Below, in pieces: positions 43,701 to 59,619 of a DNA stretch of 64,000 nucleotides (positions are counted from its first letter, which is position 1; each line of letters opens with the position of its first letter). Both the position numbers and the translations under genes were made by a program. Source of the stretch: an uncultured virus (IMG/VR IMGVR_UViG_3300025502_000012) (lineage: Duplodnaviria; Heunggongvirae; Uroviricota; Caudoviricetes); the IMG/VR virus record IMGVR_UViG_3300025502_000012; one strand, written 5' to 3'. The notes beneath the pieces are model-generated. The model searched no databases. It saw nothing but the letters and a program-made list of their open reading frames with translations, and had not been told where the DNA came from.

Positions 43701-46700
43701 GCCAATATCTCTCATTGTGTATCTGCTATTATCTTCAGCTCTTACTAATACTTCATCTGTATTTAAAGTATAACTTGGTATAGTTAATGTAGCTAATAGT
43801 AAATGTCCATCTAAATTTCCTGGCTCTAATGGATTGATAGCACTAGCACCTTTTAATATTTTTAAATCGCCTTGTCTAGTGATGAAAACTTTATCTATTC
43901 TATTTAAGAAAAATTCAAAGTCTGTTGTTATATCTGAATTGAATTGTGGTATATCAATAGTTGATCCACCTGTTCCATCAAAACTTCTATCGTTATTACC
44001 TGAATTTATTGTACTAGCATCATCTACTCTAGGTCTATAATCTAAACAATCTCTTAATTGAAATTTACTACCTGTTGTATCTGAATTATAACTTGGAATA
44101 TCTTCATAGTCAATTACCCCAGCATAAGAATCAACATCAAAATAATCTCCTGATCCATGTGAGAAGAAATCAAAGTTAACAAGTAATCTACCTGTTGGTC
44201 TAATCGCACCAGGTTTTAATTTTAATCTTCCTATGTCATAGAAATTATCTCTTTGTCCATTATCTAAATTAAATCTATTTGTAATATCTGTATGTGAAGT
44301 TGTAGCAACTGTTCCAAAAGCAGGTGACATATAAACATTATTGATTTTGAAAATATCAGCTTTACCTAAACCAATTGTACCACTTTCAATAGTTGCTTGA
44401 GTTGAAATAGCAACTGTTGAGCCACTGTTTAAAGCTTTTGTTTTTGAACCAGCAACCGTTCTTACTATTGTTGCTAAAATCTTTAATTTATGTCCTTGAA
44501 AATTAGCACCTAAATCTACTGTTAGTGTTTTACCTGTTGGTGAACCACCTAATGTAAAGATAGAATCACCTTCGTGGTTATTTCCACCTAAATTTAATAC
44601 ATCTCCAACTGCGCCAGTTCCACCAGCGCCAGTTGTCATAACTGTAGCAGTAAAATCATCACTTGCGAAAGAAGCAAATGTTTCATTTGTACCTGCAGTA
44701 ATTGTGACATCACCATTTGATGATAATGTACCTGTGAAGTTTCTTCTAACATTAAAGTTAGTATCTGTTGCATCACTGTTTGCAGTTGTTTTTAAAGTTT
44801 TAATTGTGACATGAGGTAAGTCAAATATTGAAATATTGTTTTCAGGATTTGTAAGTTTTGCTCTTTTAACTGTTAATACTGAAGCTGTAGTGACATCACT
44901 ACCACCTACATTAGCTGTTAATTCTAATTCTGTTTGAGATACAATATACTTAACTATACCGGATACTGTTCCGTTTGCGTTATTTGTAAATGAAACTGTA
45001 TCTCCTATTTTCAAATCTGTTGTAAAGTTTGTACCTTTACCAAATACAGTTGCATCACTATTTGCTACTGTGACATTACCTGTAATTGTAGTATTTGATC
45101 CGTATGTACTTGTTGTGTCAGCATCTGCTGTGTATGTTGGAGAACCAGCCATACCAATTTGTTTAACAGAGTTTATATCTCTTGTTTTAACTCCATTGAA
45201 TCCTAAAGTATCAGCTTGAATTGTTCCTGTCGCAGAAGAAGTAGCACCTGATATAACTTCACTAGCACTAAATGTACCTGAAACATTTGATAGTACAACT
45301 ACTGTGTGAGAGGCTGTAGGATTACCTGACTGTGCTGTGACATTTAATGATGTTGTACCATCACTATCAAATAATTCAAAAGTATTTGTTGTAGTGTTTC
45401 TTACAACACAAACTCTTGCGCCTGAGTTAACCGTACTATTTACAGAATATGTTCCACCTGTTAGAGTAATTTGTTGACCATCTCTAAATCCGTGAGAAGA
45501 TAAAGTTGCAACAGAAGGATTGGCAGCTGTAATCGCTATCGCTGCTGATTTAGTAGCAGTGACACTTTGAACAGTACCAGTTGCACCTGAAGTAGCACCT
45601 GATACAACTTCACCTGTTGAAAATGAAGCAGATGTTGTTAAGTTTAGATGAGTAAACATTTCAATATCAAATAAGTAGTGTCTGTATATTGAAGATGTTG
45701 CGTTTATATCACTTGATTCAGTTGCTGATACAGTTTCAAAACCACGAGATTTAGCACGACCAATTTGTGGTACAGTTGTACCCACAGTTGATTGTTGCGT
45801 TCCTCTAACAGCTGTTTTTGTATCAAATAAATTAACTGTTTTAAAAGCTTCTACATCACCAGAAACAAACCCTACATCTGGTTGTCCATAAACATTGTTT
45901 ACATTAATAAAGTTTTTTACATTAAATCTTGTTTTATGATTATTAGCTGTTTCAAAATCTCTAGCTTTTTCTACATCAACAAAAGTTGTTCCAATTCTTT
46001 CAGATTCATAACCTTTTACATAAGCTTTAAATGGAGATACTCCAAGAGCAAGTTTAGTAGCTAAACCACCATTACCACCTGTATAGATACCTCTGTTATT
46101 ACCTGACGATAAATGTTCTCTAACATCAAAGTCTGGATTAGTTAAAACATAATCACCTGATTCGTCAAATGTTCTACGAGCAAGTGTATCTTCTAATACA
46201 GCATATTCAGTGCTTCTAACAATAGATTTTGTAATTCCTTCTTCTACTCTAGCAATTTCATAAAAATTTTCATCTTCTGTTGAAGCCAAAGTTTTTTTAG
46301 CAAGTGATAGTAATATCTTAAATCTGTGTGCGCCTGGAGCATTTGCGTTTGATGAACCAGCTGCGTTATCATTTAATGTTGCATCATCATTAGGTGTCAC
46401 AAAACTTTCTGTGACTGTAAAACCTACTCTATATGATGGTGTGTTTGTGTACTTGTCTAATACTAAACTTCCAGTATCTATTTGTACAAAAAAACCATTA
46501 ATGTAATATACACCTGTTTCAATAGCTGCAGCTGAACCTGTATGTGTAGTTGCTACAACTGCTGATAATGAAACACTATCACTATTTGTTCCTGTGATTG
46601 TTTCACCATCTGAAAATACTAAATCTGTATTGTTTGTTCCAGTCTTATTATATTTTACATAAAGAGTATCTGGGTCAGTACCATCGGTTGCTTCTGTTGA

Positions 46701-57248: not shown

Positions 57249-57505
57249 TGATTAAAGAAATGAACACTTTTAATAATAAGTTATTTTCAATGTCTATTGA
57301 AGACTTGAATAACACTAAAGACTTAATCGCTGACATTATTAAGAACAAAGTAAAGTCTGTAATGAAAGTTGGTATGAAAGTTAATGTGGTACAAAAAACT
57401 AAAAAGACACCAGGTGTGATTACAAAAATCATGCAATCAAAATGTTTAGTTGATTTATCTGGTAGAGTATACAGAGTACCTATGTCAATGTTGGAGGTTG
57501 CGTAA
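57248..57505 (+). CDS. Small hypothetical protein, SH3/KOW-like C-terminus
   Basis: KVGMKVNV...G.ITKI....CLVD....YRVPMSML; GGAGG RBS. Confidence 0.65.
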   Translation: MIKEMNTFNNKLFSMSIEDLNNTKDLIADIIKNKVKSVMKVGMKVNVVQKTKKTPGVITKIMQSKCLVDLSGRVYRVPMSMLEVA

Positions 57506-57849
57506 TGATAAGAGTAGAAGAAAAATCAGAAACACTATTAGCTGGTATCGGTAAAATGATTGACGCCATGGTTGTTGATTATAGTAAAGGCAATACTAAT
57601 GAAAGAATGTTTAACGAATACAAAGATGGTTTTAAAACTATCGTTGGTCAAAAGTTTATCAAAGTGACTAATAACGGTAGTGTAAAAGCTTTTGTTGTTA
57701 AACAAGACGATGGTAGATTTAAAATGGGTGATATACTTAAAGCATCTAGTTGGAGAGCTCCAGCAAAGAATAGAGCTAGAGGTAATGTACTAGAAGCTGG
57801 TTATTCTATTCAATGGACAGGACCATTATATTTGAGAGGTTATAATTAA
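57505..57849 (+). CDS. Conserved marine-phage hypothetical protein
   Basis: GDILKASSWRAPAKNRARGNV...WTGPLYL; GGAGG RBS. Confidence 0.75.
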   Translation: MIRVEEKSETLLAGIGKMIDAMVVDYSKGNTNERMFNEYKDGFKTIVGQKFIKVTNNGSVKAFVVKQDDGRFKMGDILKASSWRAPAKNRARGNVLEAGYSIQWTGPLYLRGYN

Positions 57850-57979: not shown

Positions 57980-58140
57980 TAAAAAAAGGTAAATGTACAG
58001 TATGTAAAAAAGTATTCATATTAAAGAAAGATGAATCACTTATAGGTAAACTAGGAATAATACCTGTTGATCTATGTAAGACACACTTAAAAAAAGTTTT
58101 ATCTTATGATGAAATGAATTTAAATGATACAAGGGTATAA
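57976..58140 (+). CDS. Small zinc-finger-like protein (start revised to 57976)
   Basis: CTVC...CKTH. Confidence 0.6.
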   Translation: MIKKGKCTVCKKVFILKKDESLIGKLGIIPVDLCKTHLKKVLSYDEMNLNDTRV

Positions 58141-58358
58141 TGGACAAGTATCTTAAATGGATAGCGACAGGATTTCTAATGATAGGTTGTGCTGCTAACT
58201 CTGTGGGTATATATCCACTAGGACCAATCACTACTTTAATAGGTGGGTTCTGTTGGTTGGCCGTAGCTATCATGTGGAAAGAAGCCGCACTCATAACAAC
58301 CAATCTTGTATTATCAACAATCACTATTGTCGGTTTAGTATATACATATATTCATTAA
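58140..58358 (+). CDS. Small multi-TM membrane protein
   Basis: LKWIAT...IYPLG....G...W; hydrophobic throughout. Confidence 0.7.
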   Translation: MDKYLKWIATGFLMIGCAANSVGIYPLGPITTLIGGFCWLAVAIMWKEAALITTNLVLSTITIVGLVYTYIH

Positions 58359-58363
58359 CACAG

Positions 58364-58437
58364 GCAGGTGTAGTTAAACGGTATAACACCTATTTGTGGA
58401 ATAGAAGTCGGTTGTTCAACTCAACCCGCCTGTACCA
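58364..58437 (+). tRNA. tRNA-His(GUG)
   Basis: Acceptor GCAGGTG/CGCCTGT, D arm, anticodon loop TT-GTG-GA, T arm GGTTG-TTCAACT-CAACC, A73, encoded CCA. Confidence 0.92.
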
Positions 58438-58440
58438 AAT

Positions 58441-58596
58441 TTAAATTCCTTGTAGTCTAGGATCCTTAGAAAAAAGATTTTTCTTCGCCTTTGGTCTAGC
58501 GACACTATCTTTACTTCTTTTTCTTAATTGAGCTCTAGTAGAAATTTCTTTACTTATCTCTTTTCTTTGAGCTCGTAGGTCTTTTATTAAGTCCAT
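58441..58596 (-). CDS. Riboswitch-associated small basic protein, 51 aa (not in ORF track)
   Basis: MDLIKDLRAQRKEISKEISTRAQLRKRSKDSVARPKAKKNLFSKDPRLQGI with AAGGAG RBS. Confidence 0.8.
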   Translation of the reverse strand: MDLIKDLRAQRKEISKEISTRAQLRKRSKDSVARPKAKKNLFSKDPRLQGI

Positions 58597-58613
58597 ACTT
58601 TCTCCTTTTAAAA

Positions 58614-58666
58614 GAGCGTTTCTTCAACCTTTGTGGTTTACTTCCGTCCGTTTCCGGATAAACGAT
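58614..58666 (-). ncRNA. Glutamine-I riboswitch (glnA RNA motif)
   Basis: CGTTT-A-TCCG(GAAA)CGGA-C-GGAAGTA-AACC(ACAAA)GGTT-GAAG-AAACG-C: three-way junction with GGAAGUA/GAAG E-loop. Confidence 0.85.
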
Positions 58667-58671
58667 ATAAC

Positions 58672-58679
58672 TATTTATT
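58672..58679 (-). promoter_or_regulatory. Late-promoter variant driving the riboswitch transcript
   Basis: AATAAATA-GTTAT-A puts the predicted start at 58666, the riboswitch 5' end. Confidence 0.55.
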
Positions 58680-59619
58680 CAACTTTTGACACAGCATCCT
58701 TTAAATTTTCTAAAGGTACTAAACCTAAGTCTAATAGATAACCTCTTTTACCTGCGGCTTTTTTAGAAGTAAACTCTTTTACATATTCATCAATACCTGG
58801 TATGACACCAATGTGTTGATTTTTTACATAAAAGAATAATGGTCTACTTATTGGATAAGAACCATCTTGTATTGATTCTAAAGATATTTCTACATCTTCA
58901 ATTGTATGTGCTTGAACTTTATCCATTGAGTTATCGTAATAAGAGAAACCAAAAATACCAAAGTATTGTGGCTCACCTACTAACTTGTTAATAATCAAAG
59001 TATCGTTTTCACCCACTTCAATAACTGGTCCATCTTCTCTTAAAAGATAACAAGCCTTTTTACCTTTTTCTTTTAAGATTTCTTCTGGACAACCTTTTTT
59101 CATCACTAGACTATTCCAAGCATCTCTTGTACCAGATGTTGCTGGTGGAGTTAGAATTGCTATTTTATAGTCTGGTAAACTAGGATCAATATCTGACCAT
59201 TTAGTTGGTCTAGGACCTAAGTCAGCCATTGCTTCCCATAAGTGTTTTTTTGTAAAGTTATATTCTTTACCTTTTACAGAACTTGTAAATGCGATACCAT
59301 CTAATCCTACTATAACTTCAGTAATATCTGTGACACCATTATTTTTACAAAGTTTTATTTCTTTTGATTTGATCTTTCTACTTGCGTTTGACATATCGGG
59401 TGTGTTTACTCCGATACCAGCACAAAATAATTTCATACCACCACCAGTACCTGTAGATTCAATTACAGGTGTTTTAAACTTTCCTGACTTACCAAATCTT
59501 TCTGCTACAACTGTTGAAAATGGATATACGGTAGAACTACCAACTATATTAATTTGATCTCTTGCTTGTGCTGTTATTGTCATCAAAGACATTATAAAAG
59601 CGATTACTAATAATCTCAT
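58675..59619 (-). CDS. pstS: Phosphate ABC transporter substrate-binding protein
   Basis: Signal peptide, IVGSSTVYP, ESTGTGGG, ASR.IK, SGTRD, YPISRPLFFYVK. Confidence 0.93.
   Translation of the reverse strand: MRLLVIAFIMSLMTITAQARDQINIVGSSTVYPFSTVVAERFGKSGKFKTPVIESTGTGGGMKLFCAGIGVNTPDMSNASRKIKSKEIKLCKNNGVTDITEVIVGLDGIAFTSSVKGKEYNFTKKHLWEAMADLGPRPTKWSDIDPSLPDYKIAILTPPATSGTRDAWNSLVMKKGCPEEILKEKGKKACYLLREDGPVIEVGENDTLIINKLVGEPQYFGIFGFSYYDNSMDKVQAHTIEDVEISLESIQDGSYPISRPLFFYVKNQHIGVIPGIDEYVKEFTSKKAAGKRGYLLDLGLVPLENLKDAVSKVE

What the first reader, a model, noticed from the sequence alone, without database searches (positions are those of the whole stretch)
58441..58679. Phage-encoded glutamine riboswitch controlling an unannotated small basic protein
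Seen: the minus strand right after the pstS stop reads ATCGTTT-A-TCCG-GAAA-CGGA-C-GGAAGTA-AACC-ACAAA-GGTT-GAAG-AAACG-CTCTTTTAAAAGGAG-AAAGT-ATG. P1 (CGTTT/AAACG), a GNRA-capped P2, the GGAAGUA junction, P3 and GAAG reproduce the three-way junction of the glnA-motif (glutamine-I) riboswitch. Directly after P1, CTCTTT can pair with AAGGAG and hide the Shine-Dalgarno of a 51-aa ORF with 16 Arg/Lys and 6 acidic residues. A late-promoter variant puts the transcript start at the aptamer 5' end. Established: this class binds L-glutamine, forms a long-range pair between a junction G and a C just 3' of P1, and in cyanobacteria switches on gifB, which encodes the basic glutamine synthetase inactivating factor IF17. 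Inference: glutamine binding opens the anti-SD hairpin, so the phage makes this peptide only when host nitrogen is replete. The peptide may be a GS-inactivating factor or another nitrogen-metabolism effector in a non-cyanobacterial host.
Basis: partly seen in the sequence, partly recalled or inferred. Interest (0 to 1): 0.92.

Follow-up and report, generated by a model that had tools for sequence, protein, structure and literature searches.

The report
Phage glutamine riboswitch gating small protein
A virus of abundant ocean bacteria carries a glutamine-sensing RNA switch placed directly in front of a conserved 51-residue viral protein of unknown function, an arrangement already known in outline from cyanobacteria and from related phages.

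Summary
Window 58666-58613 (minus strand) matches the Rfam glutamine riboswitch RF01739 over the full model at 53.1 bits (cut-off 35). The window comes from a relative of Pelagibacter myophages Mosig and HTVC008M. An AATAAATA late-promoter box ends 5 nt before the aptamer. A hairpin (CUCUUU/AAGGAG) starts at the C that follows P1 and covers the Shine-Dalgarno of a 51-codon ORF.

- **ORF:** it is a real gene. Across 61 DNA variants dN/dS is about 0.2, and at least 484 viral stretches encode it.
- **Pairing with the aptamer:** 117 of 120 aptamer-bearing viral loci have a short ORF directly behind the aptamer, from about seven unrelated families. 40 of 80 loci encoding this peptide have the aptamer.
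- **Leader hairpin:** it co-varies across families.

The mechanism matches the model published for Synechocystis gifB, so it is not new. Glutamine riboswitches in Mosig and Melnitz are also published, but were assigned to control of tmRNA. In Melnitz I find an unannotated short ORF behind the aptamer instead.

The peptide matches no known family and is not DUF4278. Its proposed role as a glutamine synthetase inhibitor remains untested. This scan has noted the general phage pattern before on other DNA.

The parts
58672..58679 (-). T4-type late-promoter-like box AATAAATA; it overlaps the pstS stop codon and lies 5 nt upstream of the aptamer's first base
   Evidence: Sequence. A TAAATA-containing box ends 0-14 nt upstream of 68 of 94 distinct phage aptamer sites (mode 5-6 nt), against a background of 0.014. 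The window's minus strand has 15 TATAAATA plus 9 [ACG]ATAAATA, and the plus strand has none. Promoter activity has not been shown.
58613..58666 (-). Type-1 glutamine riboswitch aptamer (glnA RNA motif, RF01739): P1 58664-58660 with 58621-58617, GAAA-capped P2, junction CGGAAGUA, P3, GAAG
   Evidence: 53.1 bits, gathering score 35, E 7.9e-9, full model. P1's fifth pair co-varies: CG 35, UA 15, GC 1 in 51 leaders. The annotated P3 pair reads GC 42, AU 23, GU 4 in 70 distinct rows.
58616..58616 (-). C directly 3' of P1, the partner of the long-range G-C pair of the glutamine-bound state and also the first base of the anti-SD arm
   Evidence: This column is invariant in all 51 aligned leaders. Its role is taken from the Klahn 2018 passage that cites Ren 2015. 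It was not tested here.
58602..58616 (-). Anti-SD hairpin: CUCUUU (58616-58611), loop UAA, AAGGAG (58607-58602, the Shine-Dalgarno)
   Evidence: The hairpin is present in the MFE and centroid folds. The equivalent hairpin co-varies across leader classes. Blocking the last G of P1 and the following C weakens it from -3.5 to -1.5 kcal/mol in the window's sequence.
58441..58596 (-). 51-codon ORF for a basic peptide: predicted helix at residues 3-33 plus an extended conserved tail; ATG at 58596-58594, stop at 58443-58441
   Evidence: ORF listing. 105 homologous clusters, 84 of them exactly 51 aa. Alignment A1 has invariant K26 R27 S28 D30 P35 K36. dN/dS is 0.20 overall and 0.13 in the C-terminal 31 codons. 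AF2 model has pLDDT 83.
58675..59619 (-). Context: upstream pstS-like phosphate-binding protein gene, not part of the cassette
   Evidence: PF12849, E 1.4e-40. The same gene order (pstS, then aptamer, then 51-aa ORF, then opposite-strand tRNAs) is found in Mosig, with two extra genes in between.
58364..58437 (+). Context: convergent tRNA-His (GUG) gene that starts 4 nt beyond the ORF's stop codon
   Evidence: A terminator-like stem on the minus strand at 58426-58410 lies inside it.

Best explanation
This is a self-contained late-gene cassette of a T4-like phage that probably infects SAR11 bacteria. The cassette has four parts in order: a late-promoter box, a type-1 glutamine riboswitch aptamer, a hairpin that hides the Shine-Dalgarno, and a 51-codon gene. 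Without glutamine, the C after P1 and the next five bases pair with AAGGAG and block ribosome loading. When glutamine binds, the aptamer claims the last G of P1 and that C for the closed P1 and the long-range G-C pair. The hairpin is weakened and the peptide is translated. So the phage would make the peptide late in infection only when the cell's glutamine pool is high. Shown here: membership of the aptamer family, conservation and co-variation of the hairpin, the coding status of the ORF, and the tight aptamer-ORF linkage. Inferred: glutamine binding, the ON direction, the transcript start, and everything about what the peptide does.
For: - Aptamer: full-length RF01739 hit at 53.1 bits against a cut-off of 35. 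Mosig has the same aptamer (50.0 bits) directly before its 51-aa homologue.
- Linkage, aptamer to ORF: of 120 viral loci found by an aptamer pattern, 117 have an SD, a start codon and a short ORF within 70 nt of P1. The other 3 are cut by the locus end. The ORFs fall into about seven families (B 43, A 27, C 17, E 15, D 9, F 4, G 2).
- Linkage, ORF to aptamer: 40 of 80 peptide loci that have upstream sequence carry the aptamer-leader unit, which ends at or within 4 nt of the start codon in the matches I compared.
- Hairpin: it is present in nearly all of 54 unique leaders. Pairing of each leader's own 5' arm with its own SD region sums to -105.3 kcal/mol, against -79.0 +/- 5.6 for shuffled partners, with 0 of 20000 permutations as good. 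On the 23-row seed, 5 of 8 hairpin pairs change on both sides and 94% of cells are paired. On the Infernal alignment of 104 matches (70 distinct rows), 8 of 8 pairs change on both sides and 89.7% of cells are paired. Whole-structure pairing there is 95.2%, against 63% or less when partners are slid.
- Energetics: blocking the last G of P1 and the following C lowers hairpin stability on average from -7.6 to -4.0 kcal/mol. For most family-A variants it drops from -4.9 to -0.6.
- Promoter: box enrichment at 68 of 94 distinct sites against a 1.4% background.
- Coding: 61 distinct ORF DNA versions have 37, 28 and 49 variable sites at codon positions 1, 2 and 3, and dN/dS is 0.20.
- Published model: passages of Klahn 2018 describe the same mechanism for gifB and show an ON response.
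Against: - RNAalifold on the unselected 51-row MAFFT alignment recovered P1 and P2 but did not predict the leader hairpin. The hairpin's 3' arm is not in one register across leader classes.
- The alignments that do show co-variation were either a seed of 23 rows that I chose from 51 or were fitted to my model.
- The permutation test using only the five variable arm bases is weak: 2175 of 20000 permutations are as good.
- The window's leader folds no better than shuffled sequence (z = -0.72).
- With the G and C blocked, the window's own sequence still forms a slipped hairpin (-1.5 kcal/mol) and the predicted SD accessibility does not rise (0.20 to 0.18). B-type hairpins stay near -5.7 kcal/mol. 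Two-base exclusion alone therefore does not explain switching.
- Exceptions: three family-A leader types (L065, L077, L163) have the aptamer but no such hairpin. L026, L049 and L080 have a different hairpin.
- No ligand binding, transcript start or translation has been shown.
Confidence: 0.82

Rival explanations
1. The aptamer regulates something other than the downstream ORF. One version is the tmRNA, as proposed for Melnitz. Others are the upstream pstS message, or timing of lysis through another route.
For: Buchholz et al. 2022 (passages) describe the Melnitz riboswitch as lying in the 3' domain of ssrA and controlling it. In the window the aptamer starts only 8 nt after the pstS stop codon.
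Against: The window has no tmRNA. In Melnitz the Rfam tmRNA matches end at locus position 1498. The aptamer (1506-1554, 52.8 bits) lies downstream of them and is followed by the same kind of leader and by an unannotated short ORF of family C. 117 of 120 aptamer loci have a short ORF directly behind the aptamer. Upstream flanks differ between copies while the aptamer-ORF unit is kept.
Confidence: 0.05
2. The cassette is real but the logic is different. Either glutamine represses the peptide (an OFF switch), or the leader hairpin is a constitutive element for stability or low basal translation and the aptamer acts in some other way.
For: Nearest-neighbour energies leave a substantial hairpin in place after the two shared bases are removed: about -5.7 kcal/mol for B-type leaders, and a slipped -1.5 kcal/mol hairpin in the window. 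Some leaders have no anti-SD hairpin at all (L065, L077, L163). In cellular copies upstream of amt and glnA the start codon lies 76-106 nt from P1, so not every member of the class works the same way.
Against: The only tested member with this architecture, Synechocystis gifB, is switched ON by a glutamine upshift. The response is lost with a P1 mutation and restored by the compensatory change (passages of PMC6212724). The hairpin's 5' arm always begins at the two bases the bound state needs.
Confidence: 0.1
3. Peptide function, version A. The 51-aa peptide is a functional analogue of the cyanobacterial glutamine synthetase inactivating factors IF7 and IF17. It would bind the host's glutamine synthetase when glutamine is high.
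For: The regulatory layout is the same as for gifB. The peptide is small and basic, with a predicted helix and an extended conserved tail. Other phage aptamers precede genuine DUF4278 (IF17-like) ORFs: family E matches with E 3e-9.
Against: There is no DUF4278 or any other family hit for this peptide. The profile search over 1.84 billion representatives found only 52 short relatives with no annotation. PDB gave only weak coiled-coil matches at E 0.2-1.3. Half of the sampled loci, including three Pelagibacter podophages, encode the peptide without any riboswitch. So its action need not be tied to nitrogen status. No binding test was run.
Confidence: 0.12
4. Peptide function, version B. The peptide acts on some other host or phage target, for example nucleic acid, the ribosome or RNA polymerase. 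Myophages have merely placed it under nutrient-dependent control.
For: The charge is strongly basic (16 K/R of 51). The tail contains a nearly invariant linear motif. The peptide occurs both with and without the riboswitch in different phage types that infect the same host group. It is found almost only in viral DNA: at least 484 viral stretches, against 4 contigs in the genomes of 185,579 species.
Against: Nothing specific points to any one target, and no similarity to known nucleic-acid-binding or ribosome-binding families was found.
Confidence: 0.6

Closest known systems
Type-1 glutamine riboswitch of the Synechocystis sp. PCC 6803 gifB (IF17) leader (Klahn et al. 2018, PMC6212724; passages read)
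   Same: Same aptamer family (RF01739). Same position directly before a small basic protein gene. Same proposed expression platform: the C after P1 and the following bases pair with the ribosome binding site, and glutamine binding melts that helix to switch translation on.
   Different: The carrier is a phage of a heterotrophic host, not a cyanobacterium. The promoter looks like a T4-type late promoter rather than an NtcA-regulated one. The protein is not DUF4278 and has no detectable relation to IF17 or IF7.
Glutamine riboswitches reported in Methylophilales phage Melnitz, Pelagibacter phage Mosig and related marine virome contigs (Buchholz et al. 2022, PMC9004378; passages read)
   Same: Same phage group and same RNA family. 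Mosig's copy is the direct counterpart of the window's copy: the 84-nt leader query aligns at 94% identity over 98% of its length.
   Different: In the passages I read, that paper assigns the switch to control of the two-piece tmRNA and speculates on lysis timing. It does not mention a downstream small ORF. Here the switch is a leader of a 51-codon gene, with no tmRNA nearby. In Melnitz itself the aptamer lies after the tmRNA and before an unannotated short ORF. I did not see that paper's supplements.
Downstream-peptide motif / type-2 glutamine riboswitch before short ORFs in marine picocyanobacteria (Weinberg et al. 2010, PMC2864571; Klahn et al. 2018; passages read)
   Same: A glutamine-sensing leader placed before very short conserved ORFs (17-100 aa) of unknown or IF17-like function.
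   Different: It is a different aptamer family (RF01704). It is restricted to Synechococcus and Prochlorococcus according to those papers, and its ORFs are often DUF4278-like.
IF7 / IF17 glutamine synthetase inactivating factors
   Same: Small, basic proteins made when glutamine is high.
   Different: No sequence similarity was detected. A role for this peptide in glutamine synthetase control is untested.

Membership tests
Glutamine riboswitch, type 1 (glnA RNA motif, Rfam RF01739) | Covariance-model score at or above the curated gathering score over the full model | tested here: met
   53.1 bits against 35, model positions 1-53 of 53, E 7.9e-9
Glutamine riboswitch, type 1 (glnA RNA motif, Rfam RF01739) | Three-helix junction (P1, P2, P3) supported by compensatory changes in relatives | tested here: met
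   P1 fifth pair: CG 35, UA 15, GC 1. P2 pairs and one P3 pair show both-side changes (P3: GC 42, AU 23, GU 4) in 70 distinct rows. Only one P3 pair was annotated.
Glutamine riboswitch, type 1 (glnA RNA motif, Rfam RF01739) | Conserved junction sequences CGGAAGUA and GAAG, and a C directly 3' of P1 | tested here: met
   All are present in the window. These columns are invariant in 51 aligned phage leaders.
Glutamine riboswitch, type 1 (glnA RNA motif, Rfam RF01739) | Selective binding of L-glutamine with formation of the long-range G-C pair | not testable with these tools
   Needs in-line probing, ITC or NMR
Glutamine riboswitch, type 1 (glnA RNA motif, Rfam RF01739) | Location in the 5' leader of the regulated gene, with an expression platform that overlaps the ribosome binding site | tested here: met
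   The aptamer ends 17 nt before the ATG. The hairpin 58616-58602 contains the SD. The hairpin co-varies in relatives, with the caveats given in the Against line.
IF17 / DUF4278 (PF14105) glutamine synthetase inactivating factor family | Match to the DUF4278 profile | tested here: not met
   No Pfam hit at E up to 1 for the window peptide. A family-E phage ORF scored 3e-9 in the same call, so the test works.
IF17 / DUF4278 (PF14105) glutamine synthetase inactivating factor family | Binds and inactivates glutamine synthetase | not tested
   No complex prediction or assay was run.
T4-type late transcription unit | TATAAATA-like box about 6 nt upstream of the transcript start | tested here: inconclusive
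   An AATAAATA box lies 5 nt upstream of the aptamer. The box is enriched at 68 of 94 distinct sites against a 1.4% background. The transcript start was not mapped. RNA-library contigs cannot show ends.

The most novel reading that the evidence does not exclude
Marine T4-like phages run a portable 'glutamine regulon'. Late-promoter plus riboswitch cassettes gate at least seven unrelated micro-protein families. The 51-aa family described here would be a phage-made, glutamine-gated inhibitor of a central host enzyme, possibly glutamine synthetase, in SAR11-type bacteria. It would be analogous in action to cyanobacterial IF7/IF17 but unrelated in sequence.
Probability: 0.13. Interest if true: 0.8.

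Novelty: new member of a known kind. Interest (0 to 1): 0.45.

Why it matters
SAR11 bacteria and their phages are among the most abundant biological entities in the ocean, and nitrogen status shapes infection outcomes there. The finding gives a concrete and testable unit: a roughly 240-nt cassette that should make one small phage protein only when glutamine is high. It corrects the published reading that this switch controls a tmRNA in related phages. It also points to a set of unstudied micro-proteins, of which this 51-aa family is one, as the actual outputs of glutamine sensing in marine phages. The RNA mechanism itself is not new.

Tried and rejected
- **Own genome.** The window's assembly is not held. 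The nearest record, G001, is a 37-kb fragment with no RF01739 hit, so it says nothing.
- **Peptide family searches.** Pfam, PHROGs and NCBIfam gave no hit. ESM Atlas gave no usable hit and holds no model. PDB gave only weak coiled-coil matches to geminin and a kinesin-like protein at E 0.2 and 1.3. The search for longer proteins returned 15 singletons of 93-151 aa, probably gene-call extensions. No fold search was run, because the model is a single helix plus a tail.
- **RNAalifold.** On the unselected alignment it did not call the leader hairpin.
- **Single-sequence folding.** The energy is not better than shuffles.
- **RNA libraries.** Contigs of four metatranscriptome runs from four studies cover about 58440-58668. 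Contigs from RNA libraries cannot prove transcription, strand or ends. I use them only to show that flanks diverge at the cassette borders. Parts of the stretch without cover mean nothing.
- **Complex prediction with glutamine synthetase.** Not run.
- **Papers.** PMC3127080 (Ames and Breaker 2011) is not held. I did not read Ren 2015 and cite it only through Klahn 2018's passage.

Full report
**Observation.** An Rfam scan of the whole window at gathering thresholds returns two hits. One is a tRNA. The other is the glutamine riboswitch RF01739 at 58666-58613 (-), covering the full model at 53.1 bits against a cut-off of 35, with E 7.9e-9. The next ORF on that strand, 58596-58441, encodes 51 residues. 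By my count 16 are Lys or Arg and 6 are Asp or Glu. The gene just upstream is a PstS-type phosphate-binding protein (PF12849, E 1.4e-40). A tRNA-His gene on the other strand starts 4 nt beyond the ORF's stop codon.

**What genome this is.** blastn against isolated phages finds Pelagibacter phage Mosig EXVC030M at 77% identity across pstS through the small ORF, and shorter matches to HTVC008M and HTVC103P. Mosig has the same aptamer (50.0 bits) directly before an annotated 156-nt 'hypothetical protein' gene, Mosig_00116, with tRNA genes on the opposite strand behind it. So the window is from a T4-like pelagimyophage relative. Its own assembly is not held.

**Promoter.** The box AATAAATA (58679-58672) overlaps the pstS stop codon and ends 5 nt before the aptamer. 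I examined 94 distinct aptamer sites with at least 40 nt upstream, taken from L001, L003-L123 after removing identical copies. Of these, 68 have a TAAATA-containing box ending 0-14 nt upstream, most often 5 or 6 nt. TATAAATA is the commonest form (38) and AATAAATA the next (12). Only 1.4% of all positions in the same loci meet this criterion. The window's minus strand carries 24 such boxes and the plus strand none. This fits a T4-type late promoter that starts the RNA at about the first base of the aptamer. The T4 rule is from my own knowledge, and no transcript start was mapped.

**Aptamer followed by a short ORF is the rule.** In 117 of those 120 loci an SD, a start codon and an ORF of 20 or more codons follow within 70 nt of the last P1 strand. 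The other three are cut by the locus end. The ORFs are short, at most 87 residues, and fall into about seven families:
- B: 43 loci
- A, the window's family: 27 loci
- C: 17 loci
- E: 15 loci
- D: 9 loci
- F: 4 loci
- G: 2 loci

Only a representative of family E matches DUF4278, the IF17 domain (E 3e-9). The representatives of the other six families that I scanned have no significant Pfam hit. The family B representative matches phrog_32989, of unknown function.

**The leader hairpin.** In the window the C after P1 and the next five bases (CUCUUU) can pair with AAGGAG, which is the SD. The loop is 3 nt and the energy is -3.5 kcal/mol.

Evidence for it:
- RNAfold of 54 unique leaders shows a hairpin that starts at the last G of P1 or at the following C and ends in or just after the SD, in nearly all of them. 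Energies range from -3.2 to -12.4 kcal/mol, and the arms differ between ORF families.
- I made a permutation test over 17 leader classes. Each 7-nt 5' arm pairs better with its own SD region than with those of other classes. The sums are -105.3 against -79.0 +/- 5.6 kcal/mol, and 0 of 20000 permutations are as good.
- I chose a 23-row seed from the 51 leaders, leaving out family-A-type leaders, the exceptions and near-duplicates. On it, 5 of the hairpin's 8 pairs change on both sides and 94% of cells are paired.
- A covariance model built from that seed found 104 matches in 100 sources (window, L001, L003-L100). On Infernal's alignment (70 distinct rows), 8 of 8 hairpin pairs change on both sides and 89.7% of cells are paired. 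One pair reads AU 37, UA 18, GU 3, CG 1. Whole-structure pairing is 95.2%, against 63% or less with slid partners.

Evidence against it:
- With only the five variable bases the permutation signal is weak: 2175 of 20000 permutations are as good.
- RNAalifold on the unselected 51-row MAFFT alignment recovered P1 and P2 but not this hairpin, because its 3' arm is not in one register across classes.
- The Infernal alignment is fitted to the model.
- The window's leader alone folds no better than shuffles (z = -0.72).
- L065, L077 and L163 have a family-A ORF and the aptamer but no such hairpin. L026, L049 and L080 have a different hairpin.

**Switching logic.** Passages of Klahn et al. 2018 state that the type-1 aptamer switches gifB translation on after an ammonium upshift. 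A P1 mutation abolishes the response and the compensatory change restores it. They also state that the C after P1 and the adjacent bases can pair with the putative ribosome binding site, and that glutamine binding is postulated to melt this helix, citing Ren et al. 2015. The window has the same layout. I tested the idea crudely by forbidding pairing of the last G of P1 and the following C:
- Mean hairpin energy over 56 leaders goes from -7.6 to -4.0 kcal/mol.
- Most family-A variants go from -4.9 to -0.6 kcal/mol, and the predicted probability that the SD is unpaired rises from 0.02 to about 0.5.
- The window's exact sequence keeps a slipped hairpin (-1.5 kcal/mol) with no gain in accessibility.
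- B-type hairpins stay near -5.7 kcal/mol.

So exclusion of two bases is at most part of the mechanism. The ON direction is inferred from the gifB precedent.

**The ORF is a gene.**
- A search of 5.8 billion clusters gives 105 relatives, 84 of them exactly 51 aa, none with a Pfam domain.
- In 38 aligned members the C-terminal 30 residues are nearly invariant (K26 R27 S28 D30 P35 K36 invariant), while the first 20 residues vary.
- I analysed 61 distinct DNA versions, selected as 51-codon ORFs that contain the conserved basic motif. This call therefore does not test length conservation. Variable sites number 37, 28 and 49 at codon positions 1, 2 and 3. dN/dS is 0.20 overall, 0.13 for codons 21-51 and 0.35 for codons 2-20.
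- AlphaFold2 with this alignment gives one helix (residues 3-33) and an extended tail, with mean pLDDT 83.

**Distribution.**
- In one genome for each of 185,579 species only 4 contigs encode it. All four are in MAG or single-cell bins of mixed taxonomy.
- Among isolated phages, tblastn finds it only in four Pelagibacter phages: the myophage Mosig and the podophages HTVC103P, HTVC104P and HTVC023P.
- Of 84 peptide loci searched with the model, 4 lack upstream sequence. Of the remaining 80, 40 have the aptamer-leader unit ending at or within 4 nt of the start codon, judged by comparing listed match ends with the ORF starts. The other 40, including HTVC103P, have none. These 80 are the best-matching loci, so the proportion is not representative of the whole family.
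- The peptide is joined to at least three aptamer and leader flavours.
- RNA-library contigs of four runs cover only about 58440-58668. They diverge from the window at 58664-58668 and at 58440, in two cases into another flank that carries a TATAAATA box.

Together with the varied upstream flanks, this suggests a portable cassette. It does not prove transcription.

**Comparison with print.**
- Buchholz et al. 2022 (abstract and passages) already report glutamine riboswitches in Melnitz, Mosig, a Prochlorococcus phage, ten pelagimyophage MAVGs and five GOV2 contigs. They interpret the switch as controlling the tmRNA gene and perhaps lysis.
- In the Melnitz record the Rfam tmRNA matches end at locus position 1498. 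The aptamer (1506-1554, 52.8 bits) follows. It is succeeded by a leader of the same type and by an unannotated short ORF of family C that starts at the ATG at 1577-1579. The annotated CDS there is on the opposite strand. The geometry therefore favours a small-ORF leader in Melnitz too.
- Two cyanophage papers merely list the riboswitch among non-coding RNAs of T4-like cyanophages.
- Weinberg 2010 lists the motif for 'Cyanobacteria, marine' and notes tandem copies.
- My searches were 'glutamine riboswitch' with 'phage' (22 papers), with 'SAR11' (3 papers), with 'linchpin' (1 paper), and 'glnA RNA' with 'Pelagibacter' (3 papers). In the passages I read, none links the switch to this 51-aa family. 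I saw no supplements.
- Earlier notes of this scan (e1-5361874, e1-5684530) already record phage glutamine riboswitches before short unrelated genes on other DNA. A look-up by sequence found this peptide in no earlier window.

**Peptide function.** No test supports or excludes a role as a glutamine synthetase inhibitor. There is no DUF4278 or other family hit, no annotated distant relative among 1.84 billion representatives (52 hits, all 31-125 aa), nothing from the ESM Atlas, and only weak coiled-coil matches in the PDB. Three podophages carry the gene without the switch, which argues that its activity is useful regardless of glutamine and that myophages added the nutrient gate.

**Noticed.** The order that contains the MAG reached through L203 holds 46 species genomes, and 20 of them have RF01739 hits over the cut-off. 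Some are on contigs of more than 380 kb. The hits lie upstream of an ammonium transporter (tandem aptamers), a glutamine synthetase-like gene and a secreted protein of about 122 aa, in genomes of about 29-33% GC. A 2025 paper reports RF01739 in SAR86 MAGs. So the class is not confined to cyanobacteria, and a heterotrophic host could itself use it.

**Verdict.** This is a real, well-formed type-1 glutamine riboswitch cassette in a pelagiphage. It gates a conserved phage micro-protein by a mechanism already proposed for cyanobacteria. It is a new member of a known kind. The new points are the identity of the regulated gene, the reinterpretation of the Melnitz and Mosig switches, and comparative support for the SD-sequestering helix.

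Noticed in passing
L207-L213 (G002, G004, G007, G019, G021, G027, G033); e.g. L208 1503-1615, L213 1503-1552 (minus strand of locus): Cellular glutamine riboswitches in AT-rich, small-genome bacteria. 20 of 46 species genomes of the order containing the 'Rickettsiales bacterium MED606' MAG have RF01739 hits over the cut-off, some on contigs of more than 380 kb. Downstream genes are an ammonium transporter (tandem aptamers), a glutamine synthetase-like gene and a secreted protein of about 122 aa. The start codons lie 76-106 nt after P1, with no obvious anti-SD arm. The papers I read place this class in cyanobacteria, unassigned marine DNA, or (2025) SAR86.
   Followed up: partly
L123 1506-1675 (Melnitz EXVC044M record 46398-46567): In Melnitz the aptamer lies after the tmRNA and is followed by an unannotated short ORF of small-ORF family C that starts at the ATG at 1577-1579. 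The annotated 33-aa CDS MelnitzEXVC044M_89 is on the opposite strand over the same DNA and is probably a miscall.
   Followed up: yes
L021, L027, L040, L041, L067, L072, L087, L089, L092, L113 (aptamer at about 1501-1630 in the long loci): Aptamers whose P3 region holds a long insertion containing a second, partial aptamer-like core. They are followed by YRG-repeat (DUF4278-like) ORFs. Tandem aptamers occur in L016, L029, L093 and L100. Earlier notes of this scan describe such nested forms in cyanophages.
   Followed up: no
L065 1455-1528 (-), L077 212-282 (-), L163 2437-2503 (+): These family-A ORFs lie behind aptamers with a different P3 and a leader that forms no anti-SD hairpin. L163's aptamer also has P1 changed to CGUUG/CAACG and an altered P2. 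How these copies would switch, if they do, is unexplained.
   Followed up: partly
L026 1501-1587, L080 1501-1587, L049 1501-1588: A different leader design: a hairpin of unrelated sequence starts right after P1, and the SD lies about 15-25 nt further on, before YRG-repeat ORFs.
   Followed up: no
window, whole; minus against plus strand: TATAAATA occurs 15 times and [ACG]ATAAATA 9 times on the minus strand, and neither occurs on the plus strand of the 64-kb window.
   Followed up: no
window 58140-58358 (+) and 57505-57849 (+): Small plus-strand genes next to the cassette match DUF6552 (E 2.1e-9) and DUF7717 (E 2.9e-6). Their function is unknown.
   Followed up: no
window 58380-58760: The public DNA runs that hold this stretch best are labelled salt lake metagenomes (11 of the 14 DNA runs holding it, two of which may be the source). 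Marine metagenomes hold half to two thirds of its sampled words.
   Followed up: no
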